Positions 29,001 to 32,000 of a DNA stretch of 64,000 nucleotides are shown piece by piece. Position numbers: made by a program. The stretch lies in NCBI RefSeq assembly GCF_046105845.1, contig NZ_CP151004.1; one strand, written 5' to 3'. Source of the stretch: Escherichia coli. Its GTDB lineage: Bacteria; Pseudomonadota; Gammaproteobacteria; Enterobacterales; Enterobacteriaceae. Every line of letters begins with the position of its first letter. The first letter of the stretch is position 1.

Positions 29001-32000
29001 GACAACGTGCTTTGTGCGGGCTATCAGGCGTTTTATTCTTACTCTGCGCCGCATATGCGGGTGATGCGTGATCTGATAAAGCAGCATCGTTCTCCCATGG
29101 AGCTGATGACGATGCTGCGGTGACGTGAGCTTAAACGGGCTGCCCCTGATGCGACATCCGCGTCGCCAGCGGTAGCCAGCACAGCACGATCAACAATCCC
29201 ATTAAGGTCATCAACAACCCCAGGCTGCCCTGACCGGTTTGCGGCAACATCGCAGAGAGCGACGCCAGCACGCCGGAACCAATGTTTTGCAGACCGCCGA
29301 CCAGCGCGCCAGCCGTGCCCGCCAGGAAGGGGAACGGCTCCATCGCGCCGCTGGTCGCCAGCGGAAACAGCATCCCGGCACCGAAAAAGAACAGCGCGGC
29401 GGGAACGAGCAGCGTCCAGACATTCATCACGCCAAACCAGTCGGGGATCCACATCAGCAAGCCAGCCAGCAGGCAGCAGATAACCGACTGCCACATCAAC
29501 GTTGAGAAGCGTTTATTAGGACGTCCGGCAAACCATGCCCCAAAAAATGCCGCCGGAATCGGCAGAATAAACAAAATACTGACCGTCATACTGCTCAGCC
29601 CTAATACCGCGCCCATCAGCACGCCGGAGCAGGCTTCAAAGGCGGCAATCCCGGCCAGACCGCCAATCAGCATCAGCAAATAACAGTTAAAACCGCTGTT
29701 ACCGAAAAGCGTTTTATAACTGGTAAGCAGGCGCGTGCGCGGTGCGTCGACCGGACGCGTTTCCGGCATCCAGCGGGCCATACTGAAGGTCACACCGGCA
29801 CAAAGAACCAACAAAAAGAGATAACAGGCGCGCCAGTTCCACATCGTATCCAGCAGACCACCGATTAGCGGTGCGAGCAACGGACTGACAAGAATCCCCA
29901 TGTTTAACAAGCTGTTAGCGTGGCGCAACTGTGTCCGTTCATATAAATCACGCGGCAAAGTACGCGCCATTACACCGCCAACGCCGGTGCCCATGCCCTG
30001 CATCGCGCTGGCGGCAATCAATACCGTCAAACTGGAGGTCGTGACCGCGACCAGCGTTGCCAGCATAAAAATGGACATTCCGACGAGGATCACCGGTCGG
30101 CGACCGACACGGTCGGAAATCGGGCCATAAAACAGCTGCGAGACACCGTAAGTCAGCAGATAAGCGCCCATTACGCTCTGCACCGCCCCTTCACGGACGT
30201 TGAGATCGCGCGCCATATCGGCAATAGCTGGAATATAAATGGTTTGCGCCATCTGACCGACGGCCACGAGTAATACCAACATCAATAACAAATTGACGTT
30301 TCTATGCCTTTTCATTATCACGGATGCTTTTATAAAAATAATTAGAATAAGTCACTACGCATTCCCATAAATGCGGGAGAGGAATCTATCACATTGATAA
30401 ATGTTAGCCAGATATACGCCAGGAATGGGGAATTGTTTAGCGGCAGAATATGTAAACAAAAGCGGCAATAAATGTTGCCGGGAGGGATGGTAAGTCGGAT
30501 AAGATGCGTCAGCACCGCATCCGACACTAACCCGCACGCTAAATATAAAAGGGGAGCGGTTACCCGCTCCCCTTTGGTGCGACTTGAATCTGAATTACTT
30601 CAGGTATTTCAGAACAGCATCAAGCAGTTGCAGTGCTGCAACAATGAGTTTGAGGATAAGAATGGCGATATCCACCAGGCTCATACGCGTCTCCTGTGGT
30701 TCAGGAGCACTGCCAGCTGACGTACCTTTCCGCTGCCTGTTGCCAGCTGTTGTGCACGCGGTATCTCAAGGAGAAACGTTGTGCTTGTTGACATAACACA
30801 GTGTGCTCACGCGGGGTTAAGGCGCTGACGGCACCACCCGTTTCAGCCAGGACTTAGTGCGCCGGGTAACGATGCGGCCCCCGCATAACACATTGCGTAC
30901 AGTGATATTATAGAAGCTTACTGTATAAATAAACAGTAATATTTAGACAAAACGTAAAGTGTGATCGATACTCAACTATGCACTAAATACGTCAAAATTC
31001 GTGCTGAAATTGCGCGTTCTGCGCGGAACACGTATACTTTCAGTGTTGACATAATACAGTGTGGTTTGCGGTTACCAGCCGCAGGCGACTGACGAAACCT
31101 CGCTCCGGCGGGGTTTTTTGTTACCTGCAATTCAGTACAAAACGTGATCAACCCCTCAATTTTCCCTTGCTGAAAAATTTTCCATTGTCTCCCCTGTAAA
31201 GCTGTGCTTGTATAAATATTGTTAAACACAAAACCAACAAGGTCCCCAATGACTACTTCCATGTTCAACGCAAAACTACTACCAACTGCGCCATCCGCCG
31301 CAGTGGTCGTCGTGCGTGTGGTGGTGGTCGTCGGCAATGCGCCGTAGGGACTGGAACAACACACGATTCCAAAACCCCGCCGGCGCAAACCGGGCGGGGT
31401 TTTTCGTTTAAGCACCTCCCGGAAAGTCGGCCCAGAAGAAAAGGACTGGAGCATGGCAAGTTCGGGCACAACATCAACGCGTAAGCGCTTTACCGGCGCA
31501 GAATTTATCGTTCATTTCCTGGAACAGCAGGGCATTAAGATTGTGACGGGCATTCCGGGCGGTTCTATCCTCCCTGTTTACGACGCCTTAAGCCAAAGCA
31601 CGCAAATCCGCCATATTCTGGCTCGCCATGAACAGGGCGCGGGGTTTATCGCTCAGGGAATGGCGCGCACCGACGGTAAACCGGCGGTCTGTATGGCCTG
31701 TAGCGGACCGGGTGCGACTAATCTGGTGACCGCCATTGCCGATGCGCGGCTGGACTCCATCCCGCTGATTTGCATCACTGGTCAGGTTCCCGCCTCAATG
31801 ATCGGCACCGACGCCTTCCAGGAAGTCGACACCTACGGCATCTCTATCCCCATCACCAAACACAACTATCTGGTCAGACATATCGAAGAACTCCCGCAGG
31901 TCATGAGCGATGCCTTCCGCATTGCGCAATCAGGCCGTCCTGGCCCGGTGTGGATAGACATTCCTAAGGATGTGCAAACGGCAGTTTTTGAGATTGAAGC

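What the first reader, a model, noticed from the sequence alone, without database searches (positions are those of the whole stretch)
30541..31120. Complete tisB/istR-1 type I toxin-antitoxin locus with its LexA box
A 29-codon minus-strand ORF that the ORF track misses encodes exactly the TisB peptide. A consensus LexA box lies about 240 bp upstream. On the plus strand, the 19-mer GTTGACATAACACAGTGTG inside the tisAB leader (30787-30805) is directly repeated, with one mismatch, at the 5-prime end of the divergently encoded sRNA (about 31045-31063). A direct repeat on one DNA strand between divergent transcripts means the two RNAs are complementary, consistent with IstR-1 pairing well upstream of the tisB ribosome binding site.
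Basis: partly seen in the sequence, partly recalled or inferred. Interest (0 to 1): 0.45.

Follow-up and report, generated by a model that had tools for sequence, protein, structure and literature searches.

The report
Known tisB/istR toxin-antitoxin locus
This is the well-studied E. coli tisB/istR-1 toxin-antitoxin locus, complete and in its usual chromosomal position, so it is ordinary except for one private base change that shortens the antitoxin-toxin RNA pairing from 21 to 19 bases.

Summary
Window 30541-31120 holds a complete tisB/istR-1 type I toxin-antitoxin locus between emrD and ivbL, as in E. coli K-12.

- **Parts found.** The 29-codon tisB ORF, the overlapping tisA ORF, a LexA box and an istR gene (Rfam RF01400, 143 bits) are all present. 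So is the 19-mer direct repeat with one mismatch; 0.02 such matches are expected by chance.
- **Mismatch.** The one mismatch in the repeat becomes a G·U wobble in the RNA duplex.
- **Other species.** In 25 loci from other genomes (Escherichia, Citrobacter, Leclercia, Salmonella) the repeat always starts at the inferred IstR-1 5' end. It keeps pairing through two compensatory changes.

- **TisB allele.** The peptide is the N2S variant. This is the dominant natural allele, one residue different from K-12.
- **Shortened pairing.** The canonical complementarity is 21 nt. Here a C→G change at 31064 (IstR-1 nt 20) creates a G·G mismatch and leaves 19 contiguous pairs. This G occurs in none of 5,426 complete E. 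coli genomes and in no metagenome contig. It costs about 4 kcal/mol of predicted duplex energy and probably has little effect.

Novelty: already known. Interest: low.

The parts
30548..30575 (-). Intrinsic terminator of the tisAB transcript: 12-bp G+C-rich hairpin followed by a T-run extending to about 30541
   Evidence: Terminator scan and perfect inverted repeat I1. Stem conserved in K-12 and 042, with variation only in the loop.
30595..30684 (-). tisB, a 29-aa hydrophobic toxin peptide of the N2S allele
   Evidence: ORF list and translation. NCBIfam TisB equivalogs at 69.9 and 61.5 bits. Annotated as tisB at the homologous position in RefSeq genomes.
30690..30695 (-). tisB Shine-Dalgarno AGGAGA, 5 nt upstream of the ATG and inside a predicted hairpin
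   Evidence: Read from the sequence. Same element as listed for MG1655 in PMC11264685 Table 1. Mean predicted unpaired probability 0.16-0.20 in all mRNA forms.
30681..30794 (-). tisA, a 37-codon upstream ORF whose stop overlaps the tisB start (ATGA). It is reported as not detectably translated in K-12.
   Evidence: ORF list. DNA identical to K-12 over this ORF. Literature: PMC11264685.
30787..30807 (-). IstR-1 target and ribosome standby site in the tisAB leader. It covers the tisA start codon and lies about +94 to +114 of the mRNA, 91 nt upstream of the tisB Shine-Dalgarno.
   Evidence: Repeat search. Duplex prediction. Cross-species conservation and covariation. Mechanism from PMC6690012.
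30907..30912 (-). tisAB promoter -10 hexamer TATAAT. The inferred +1 is about 30900, which puts +42 near 30859 and +106 near 30795.
   Evidence: Read from the sequence. TATAAT is listed as the tisAB -10 in PMC11264685 Table 1. The +1 position is inferred from spacing, not measured.
30919..30938 (.). LexA box TACTGTATAAATAAACAGTA. It overlaps the -35 region of the tisAB promoter and ends 5 nt before the IstR-2 -35.
   Evidence: Pattern search: the only site in 64 kb, 0.00 expected. The CTGT-N8-ACAG core is conserved in all 26 loci compared.
30944..30972 (+). istR-2 promoter, TAGACA-17 nt-GATACT (MG1655 has TGGACA as the -35)
   Evidence: Promoter scan. Elements listed in PMC11264685 Table 1. 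Alignment to K-12.
30980..31119 (+). IstR-2, the roughly 140-nt longer transcript that shares its 3' end with IstR-1. The 5' end is inferred.
   Evidence: The Rfam istR model covers 30990-31119. The start is inferred from the promoter position.
31010..31038 (+). istR-1 promoter, TTGCGC-17 nt-TATACT
   Evidence: Read from the sequence. Identical to the MG1655 elements in PMC11264685 Table 1.
31045..31119 (+). IstR-1, the 75-nt antitoxin sRNA: a single-stranded 5' tail that is antisense to the target, an internal hairpin and a Rho-independent terminator
   Evidence: Rfam match. Fold at -32.2 kcal/mol, z = -4.0, with nt 1-16 unpaired. Terminator scan. The repeat begins exactly at 31045 in every species compared.
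31064..31064 (+). Private substitution, G where other genomes have C (a few Citrobacter have T), at IstR-1 nt 20. It gives a G·G mismatch with the target and adds a G-C pair to the internal IstR-1 stem.
   Evidence: Alignments. The 30-mer carrying G is in 0 of 5,426 E. coli genomes; the C version is in 4,263. The G version is in 0 metagenome contigs. Fold and duplex energies.

Best explanation
This is the chromosomal tisB/istR-1 type I toxin-antitoxin module of an Escherichia coli-like genome.

Mechanism, taken from K-12 experiments and transferred here by near-identity:
1. LexA bound at 30919-30938 represses the minus-strand tisAB promoter.
2. DNA damage relieves that repression, and a roughly 350-nt tisAB mRNA is made.
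3. The primary transcript is not translated, because the tisB ribosome binding site is locked in a hairpin.
4. Removal of the first 41 nt exposes a single-stranded standby site (30807-30787). There 30S subunits load through protein S1 and then slide to the tisB start.
5. IstR-1 is made constitutively from the plus strand starting at 31045. Its 5' tail pairs with the standby site, blocks ribosome loading and triggers RNase III cleavage. This yields the inactive +106 mRNA.
6. When tisAB mRNA exceeds IstR-1, TisB inserts into the inner membrane, collapses the proton motive force and promotes persister formation.

In this window the duplex has 19 contiguous pairs (18 Watson-Crick and one G·U). A G·G mismatch and two more pairs follow, in place of the canonical 21-22 pairs.

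Shown here: every sequence element, the complementarity, its conservation and its covariation. Inferred: transcript ends, processing, RNase III cleavage, toxicity and SOS control.
For: - Identity: 98.6% to K-12 and 99.3% to E. coli 042 over 580 nt, with the same flanking genes.
- The tisAB transcribed region differs from K-12 at only three positions: two in the terminator loop (30561-30562) and one in tisB codon 2, which gives N2S. The leader from the tisB ATG up to the inferred +1 is identical.
- TisB matches the NCBIfam equivalog models. istR matches Rfam RF01400 at 143 bits.
- The LexA box is unique in the window.
- The repeat is far beyond chance.
- The 5' tail of IstR-1 pairs best with the tisAB target at -32.9 kcal/mol. 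The next-best site in 64 kb scores -20.7, leaving aside the strand opposite istR itself.
- IstR-1 folds with a free 5' tail.
- In the 26 loci compared (window, K-12, 042, VCSW5 and 22 species representatives) the 22-bp duplex is paired in 98.6% of cells. Registers slid by 1-3 columns give 19-50%. Two positions carry compensatory double changes, and the repeat begins exactly at the inferred IstR-1 +1.
- Promoter hexamers and the Shine-Dalgarno match those tabulated for MG1655.
- Mechanism: PMC6690012 and PMC4147584.
Against: - Nothing contradicts membership.
- No transcript or protein data exist for this genome, so expression is inferred.
- The C-to-G change at 31064 removes one pair from the 3' edge of the duplex and strengthens the internal IstR-1 stem. 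Antitoxin efficiency could therefore be somewhat lower than in K-12.
- Thermodynamic folding reproduces the +1 versus +42 accessibility difference only modestly: mean unpaired probability of the target is 0.38 against 0.50.
Confidence: 0.96

Rival explanations
1. The locus is a tisB/istR-1 module with a weakened antitoxin. The G at IstR-1 nt 20 shortens the intermolecular helix and locks nt 20-23 into the sRNA's own stem. Repression of tisB is therefore leakier, and this lineage makes more TisB-dependent persisters or carries a fitness cost.
For: - G·G mismatch at duplex position 20. Tail-only duplex energy is -32.9 against -37.0 kcal/mol, and the cofold binding gain is -24.4 against -28.2 kcal/mol.
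- In the predicted fold G20 pairs with C42, extending the internal stem.
- The variant is absent from 5,426 complete E. coli genomes, while the C allele is in 4,263. It is absent from metagenome contigs.
- In the 25 other loci compared, position 20 is always C or U, both of which can pair.
Against: - Nineteen contiguous pairs remain, starting at the free 5' end where pairing would initiate.
- In the analogous zor/orz system, 15 contiguous or 17 discontinuous pairs were enough for repression (PMC11264685).
- Three Citrobacter loci carry an internal A·C mismatch at position 7, which is more disruptive, and still keep the module.
- The flanks are 2-3% diverged from other E. coli. One or two private changes in a 140-nt gene is what drift would give.
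Confidence: 0.15
2. The G at 31064 (and perhaps the T at 31005) is a sequencing or assembly error. On this reading the true sequence has the canonical 21-nt complementarity.
For: The G allele is seen nowhere else in any collection searched. Both differences that separate this window from every compared E. coli within 30980-31120 lie in istR.
Against: The surrounding 10 kb differs from the closest complete genome by 1.9% and from most others by 3.1%. Many private substitutions are therefore expected. The change is a clean transversion outside any homopolymer. The raw reads cannot be examined here.
Confidence: 0.1
3. The repeat reflects a duplication that created istR from the tisAB leader, or the reverse. 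On this reading homology would extend beyond the antisense core, and extra pairing would involve the 3' part of IstR-1.
For: the repeat finder reports a second short similarity, GCTCACGCGGGGTT against GCTCCGGCGGGGTT. Unconstrained duplex and cofold predictions extend pairing into the IstR-1 3' half.
Against: Local alignment of the sequences beyond the core scores 17. Mononucleotide shuffles reached that score 131 times in 2,000. The upstream sides score below the shuffle mean. The extra pairing would require melting the IstR-1 terminator hairpin. In other species the similarity ends within 1-4 nt of the core.
Confidence: 0.03

Closest known systems
tisB/istR-1 (tisAB-istR) type I toxin-antitoxin locus of E. 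coli K-12 (Vogel et al. 2004 and Darfeuille et al. 2007 cited from my own knowledge; PMC6690012, PMC4147584)
   Same: Same chromosomal position (emrD-ysdE-tisB-istR-ivbL) and same architecture. The tisAB leader, LexA box, istR-1 promoter, tisAB -10 hexamer, Shine-Dalgarno and standby site are identical. Overall identity is 98.6% over 580 nt.
   Different: - TisB carries N2S.
- The IstR-2 -35 is TAGACA instead of TGGACA.
- 31005 is T instead of C, in the IstR-2-specific part.
- 31064 is G instead of C, which shortens the contiguous duplex from 21 to 19 bp.
- Two bases differ in the loop of the tisB terminator.
tis/istR allele of E. coli 042 and VCSW5, the dominant natural N2S allele (PMC11264685)
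   Same: Identical TisB protein, WP_000060506.1. Identity is 99.3% to 042 over 580 nt. The N2S variant is reported as the consensus (85%) across more than 2,000 E. coli genomes and as toxic.
   Different: Four positions differ from 042: two in the terminator loop, plus 31005 and 31064 in istR.
Other divergently encoded E. coli type I systems: dinQ/agrB, shoB/ohsC, zor/orz
   Same: Each has a small hydrophobic toxin and a divergent sRNA with a short block of complementarity in the long 5' UTR, far from the start codon. dinQ is also LexA-controlled (PMC4147584, PMC3567139).
   Different: The toxin and sRNA sequences are unrelated. The window matches the TisB and istR models specifically.

Membership tests
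tisB/istR-1 type I toxin-antitoxin system | 29-aa hydrophobic TisB peptide matching the curated TisB equivalog models | tested here: met
   NF011340 at 69.9 bits (cut-off 53) and TIGR04459 at 61.5 bits (cut-off 38), full length 1-29. 28 of 29 residues identical to K-12 and 29 of 29 to E. coli 042.
tisB/istR-1 type I toxin-antitoxin system | istR sRNA gene (IstR-1 within IstR-2) matching the Rfam istR covariance model, with a Rho-independent terminator | tested here: met
   RF01400 at 143.2 bits against a gathering score of 45, model positions 1-130 of 130, at 30990-31119 plus strand. Terminator hairpin followed by a T-run.
tisB/istR-1 type I toxin-antitoxin system | Divergent arrangement of tisAB and istR with a LexA operator in the shared intergenic region | tested here: met
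   tisB on the minus strand, istR on the plus strand, LexA box at 30919-30938 between them. The box core is conserved in all 26 loci compared.
tisB/istR-1 type I toxin-antitoxin system | About 21 nt of complementarity between the IstR-1 5' end and the tisAB leader, roughly 100 nt upstream of the tisB ribosome binding site | tested here: met
   19 contiguous pairs including one G·U, then a G·G mismatch, then U-A and U·G. The target ends 91 nt upstream of the Shine-Dalgarno. This is two pairs shorter than the canonical 21 nt (PMC4147584) because of the substitution at 31064.
tisB/istR-1 type I toxin-antitoxin system | Pairing maintained by selection, shown by conservation and covariation across species | tested here: met
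   98.6% of cells paired across 13 distinct sequences. Two pairs have compensatory changes. Slid registers give 19-50%. Support is modest because 16 of 22 pairs never vary.
tisB/istR-1 type I toxin-antitoxin system | Promoter and translation signals as mapped in MG1655: istR-1 TTGCGC/TATACT, istR-2 -10 GATACT, tisAB -10 TATAAT, Shine-Dalgarno AGGAGA | tested here: met
   All are present at the homologous positions. The only difference is the IstR-2 -35, TAGACA instead of TGGACA.
tisB/istR-1 type I toxin-antitoxin system | Synteny with the K-12 locus (emrD ... ivbL-ilvB) | tested here: met
   RefSeq annotation of homologous regions in BW25113, 042 and VCSW5. emrD and ivbL ORFs are present in the window.
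tisB/istR-1 type I toxin-antitoxin system | SOS-inducible tisAB transcription, 5' processing to +42, standby-dependent translation, IstR-1-dependent RNase III cleavage to +106, and TisB toxicity | not testable with these tools
   Established for K-12 (PMC6690012, PMC4147584) and, for toxicity of the N2S allele, in PMC11264685. Transferred here because the leader sequence is identical.

The most novel reading that the evidence does not exclude
This lineage carries a naturally attenuated IstR-1 antitoxin. The private C20G change trims the antisense helix to 19 bp and sequesters nt 20-23 in the sRNA's own stem. That would raise basal or SOS-induced TisB synthesis and shift persister frequency. 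It would be a natural allele for titrating the standby-site competition in vivo.
Probability: 0.12. Interest if true: 0.3.

Novelty: already known. Interest (0 to 1): 0.08.

Why it matters
[quoted passage not shown] Finding it here adds no new biology. It does show that the first-stage reader can recover a small unannotated toxin gene and a trans-acting antisense pair from raw sequence. The only item of possible use is the private IstR-1 C20G allele. If it is real and functional, it would be a natural test of how much pairing the antitoxin needs.

Tried and rejected
1. Homology beyond the antisense core, as a sign of a duplication origin or extended pairing. The local alignment score of 17 was reached by 131 of 2,000 shuffles, and the upstream sides scored below the shuffle mean. 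Rejected.
2. A third copy of the motif, CATAACACATTG at 30884-30895 (about +6 to +17 of the mRNA), as a second IstR-1 site. It is 12 nt with one mismatch. It is replaced by unrelated sequence in Leclercia and three Citrobacter loci that keep the main site. It more likely reflects the near-palindromic ACACNGTGT motif and the 5' element that masks the standby site in the +1 mRNA. Rejected, with low priority.
3. A whole-RNA duplexfold without intramolecular competition gave an uninformative 70-nt 'duplex'. It was replaced by tail-only and cofold calculations.
It was replaced by a degenerate DNA pattern for AALQLLDAVLKY. That pattern only recovers loci keeping those 12 residues, so more distant TisB homologues were not sampled.
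5. A search for the G allele in metagenome contigs found nothing.
6. Below-threshold Rfam hits to naRNA4 (30494-30526) and Pseudomonas P6 (31373-31430) are a REP-type palindrome and the ilvB attenuator terminator. Neither is a member of those families.
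Full report
**Observation**

The minus strand of 30595-30684 carries a 29-codon ORF encoding MSLVDIAILILKLIVAALQLLDAVLKYLK. It is preceded by AGGAGA, 5 nt upstream of the ATG. It overlaps the stop codon of a 37-codon upstream ORF, tisA, at 30681-30794.

The 20-mer TACTGTATAAATAAACAGTA at 30919-30938 matches the LexA consensus at 18 of 20 positions. It is the only such site in the 64-kb window, with 0.00 expected. It starts 235 nt upstream of the tisB ATG.

GTTGACATAACACAGTGTG (30787-30805) recurs as GTTGACATAATACAGTGTG (31045-31063). 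No other match with up to three mismatches exists in the window, and 0.02 are expected.

Rfam's istR model (RF01400) matches 30990-31119 on the plus strand end to end, at 143.2 bits against a gathering score of 45.

**Identity of the locus**

The 580-nt region matches 4,358 of 5,426 complete E. coli genomes at 95-99.3% identity. The underlying feature is annotated as tisB each time. In K-12 BW25113, 042 and VCSW5 the neighbours are yidF, emrD, ysdE, tisB, ivbL and ilvB, and the window has the same order.

The peptide passes both NCBIfam TisB equivalog models. It differs from K-12 TisB at residue 2 (N2S) and is identical to the 042 and VCSW5 protein. A survey of more than 2,000 E. coli genomes reports N2S as the consensus allele (85%) and shows that it is toxic (PMC11264685). 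All 22 representatives of other species examined here also have Ser2.

**Anatomy**

| Element | Strand | Coordinates | Basis |
|---|---|---|---|
| tisAB -10 TATAAT | minus | 30912-30907 | same hexamer as MG1655 |
| tisAB +1 | minus | about 30900 | inferred from spacing |
| tisB Shine-Dalgarno AGGAGA | minus | 30695-30690 | same as MG1655 |
| tisB terminator, 12-bp hairpin | minus | 30575-30548 | |
| istR-1 promoter TTGCGC-17 nt-TATACT | plus | 31010-31038 | same as MG1655 |
| IstR-1 5' end (G) | plus | 31045 | 7 nt after the -10; inferred |
| istR-2 promoter TAGACA-17 nt-GATACT | plus | 30944-30972 | |
| IstR-2 5' end | plus | about 30980 | inferred; gives a 140-nt RNA ending at 31119 |

All hexamers equal those tabulated for MG1655, except that the IstR-2 -35 is TGGACA in MG1655. 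With +1 at about 30900, the published +42 and +106 5' ends fall near 30859 and 30795. The latter lies in the middle of the predicted duplex, as expected for RNase III cleavage.

The tisAB transcribed region differs from K-12 at three positions only: two in the terminator loop and one in tisB codon 2. The leader from the tisB ATG to the inferred +1 is identical. The K-12 structural and mechanistic data for the leader therefore transfer directly.

**Pairing**

tisAB is read from the minus strand and istR from the plus strand, so the plus-strand direct repeat makes the RNAs complementary. The C/T difference inside the repeat becomes a G·U wobble.

IstR-1 alone folds at -32.2 kcal/mol (z = -4.0). 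Nucleotides 1-16 are unpaired, followed by an internal hairpin and a terminator.

The 23-nt tail pairs with the tisAB target at -32.9 kcal/mol. Apart from the trivially complementary strand opposite istR itself, the next-best site in the 64 kb scores -20.7.

Partition-function folding keeps the tisB ribosome binding site mostly paired in all mRNA forms (unpaired probability 0.16-0.20). The target is somewhat more open in the +42 form than in the +1 form (0.50 against 0.38). This agrees in direction with the published model, but only modestly.

**Comparative test**

A degenerate pattern for TisB residues AALQLLDAVLKY recovered 24 stretches from GTDB species representatives. Twenty-two of them gave a full-length locus for comparison: Escherichia coli-like, E. 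whittamii, Escherichia sp. E1V33, many Citrobacter, Leclercia and Salmonella enterica subsp. diarizonae. With the window, K-12, 042 and VCSW5, that makes 26 loci.

In every one the direct repeat is present and begins exactly at the G inferred as IstR-1 +1. The sequence immediately upstream differs between the two copies. The repeat is written below as a 22-bp intermolecular helix.
- 98.6% of cells form standard pairs. Registers slid by 1-3 columns give 19-50%.
- Position 7 changes A-U to G-C in two distinct sequences (six loci).
- Position 16 changes U-A to C-G in one sequence.
- Positions 11, 20 and 22 vary through G·U wobbles.

Sixteen of the 22 pairs never vary, so the covariation support is real but modest.

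**The one unusual feature**

Published work gives 21 nt of complementarity (PMC4147584), and K-12, 042 and VCSW5 indeed share GTTGACATAAYACAGTGTGCT. The window has G instead of C at 31064, which is IstR-1 nt 20. The target base at 30806 is unchanged, so the RNAs meet in a G·G mismatch.
- **In complete E. coli genomes.** A 30-mer carrying the G is absent from all 5,426. The control 30-mer carrying C is found at 100% identity in 4,263.
- **In metagenomes.** The G version is also absent from the metagenome contigs.
- **In the 25 other loci.** Position 20 is always C or U, and both can pair.
- **Predicted cost.** The change costs about 4 kcal/mol of duplex energy (-32.9 against -37.0).
- **Effect on the sRNA fold.** G20 can pair with C42 inside IstR-1, which extends the sRNA's own stem.

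I judge a functional effect unlikely.
- Nineteen contiguous pairs remain at the free 5' end.
- 15-17 pairs sufficed in the analogous zor/orz system (PMC11264685).
- Three Citrobacter loci tolerate an internal A·C mismatch.
- The surrounding 10 kb is 1.9-3.1% diverged from other E. coli, so one or two private changes in a 140-nt gene are expected.

A base-calling error cannot be excluded.

**Mechanism**

This is established for K-12 and inferred here.
1. LexA represses tisAB.
2. After DNA damage the primary mRNA is made, but it is translationally inert.
3. Processing to +42 opens the standby site.
4. 30S subunits load there through protein S1 and relocate to the structured tisB ribosome binding site.
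5. IstR-1 pairs across the standby site, blocks loading and directs RNase III cleavage to the inert +106 form.
6. Excess TisB depolarises the inner membrane and favours persisters (PMC6690012; PMC4147584).
7. IstR-2 is SOS-induced and does not repress tisB (PMC11264685).

**Comparison and novelty**

Every testable defining feature of the tisB/istR-1 family is met: the toxin model, the sRNA model, the divergent layout with a LexA box, the antisense block at the standby site, the regulatory hexamers and the synteny. The locus is already known.

Its presence or absence is also known to vary. Here about 80% of complete genomes have it. In those lacking it, such as MS8345, window 30483-31171 is replaced by about 155 nt of unrelated sequence. 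The published survey reports 82% full, 3% interrupted and 15% absent.

**Verdict**

- Observation: confirmed.
- Interpretation: supported, with small corrections (N2S allele; 19 rather than 21 contiguous pairs owing to a private substitution; the mismatch is a wobble; IstR-2 is also encoded).
- Interest: low.

Noticed in passing
window 30483-31171: The whole tisB/istR module is a presence/absence polymorphism. In about 20% of complete E. coli genomes (for example MS8345), homology to the window stops at 30482 and resumes near 31172, with about 155 nt of unrelated sequence between ysdE and ivbL. This agrees with the published figure of 15% of genomes lacking the locus.
   Followed up: partly
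window 30494-30526: A REP-type palindrome (GTCGGATAAGATGCGTCAGCACCGCATCCGAC) lies just downstream of the tisB terminator. It gives a sub-threshold partial hit to Rfam naRNA4 (24 bits against 59.5). It lies inside the segment that tisB-less strains lack.
   Followed up: no
window 30397-30471 (+): The small ORF homologous to RefSeq ysdE (24 aa, INVSQIYARNGELFSGRICKQKRQ) lies between emrD and tisB. At the annotated coordinates it would start on ATA, and a TTG lies one codon upstream.
   Followed up: no
window 31005: A second difference from all compared E. coli (T instead of C). It lies in the IstR-2-specific 5' part, at a position that is unpaired in the Rfam consensus structure.
   Followed up: partly
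window 30944-30949: The IstR-2 -35 hexamer is TAGACA, shared with E. coli 042 and VCSW5, while MG1655 has TGGACA. The published survey lists the MG1655 form in 94.5% of loci.
   Followed up: no
window 30884-30895: A third partial copy of the antisense-core motif, CATAACACATTG, lies near the 5' end of the tisAB mRNA. In the predicted +1 fold this 5' segment pairs with the region overlapping the standby site. The motif is not conserved in Leclercia or in some Citrobacter.
   Followed up: partly
window 31249-31347 (+) and 31373-31430: The ivbL leader peptide ORF (MTTSMFNAKLLPTAPSAAVVVVRVVVVVGNAP, a Val/Leu-rich attenuation leader) and the following G+C-rich hairpin with a T-run form the ilvBN attenuator. 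The hairpin gives a spurious sub-threshold hit to Pseudomonas P6.
   Followed up: no
window 26000-36000: The 10 kb around the locus is only 98.1% identical to the closest complete E. coli genome (VCSW5, soil/drain sediment) and 96.9% to the next-best complete genomes (O55:H7 and O157:H7). The tisB/istR module itself is 98.6-99.3% identical. The window therefore comes from a divergent Escherichia lineage, and the module is more conserved than its flanks.
   Followed up: partly
window 511-591 (-), 6068-6110 (-), 16240-16312 (+): Other Rfam matches above gathering score: AsdA antisense RNA of dnaA (101.9 bits), ES036/CssrF sRNA (56.9 bits) and a ROSE_2 RNA thermometer (100.4 bits). The window appears to start near dnaA, like many E. 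coli assemblies.
   Followed up: no
L021 (NZ_BOQD01000672.1, 243 bp): A 243-bp contig in a 'Bacillus hominis' assembly carries the TisB coding pattern. It is almost certainly enterobacterial contamination of that assembly.
   Followed up: no
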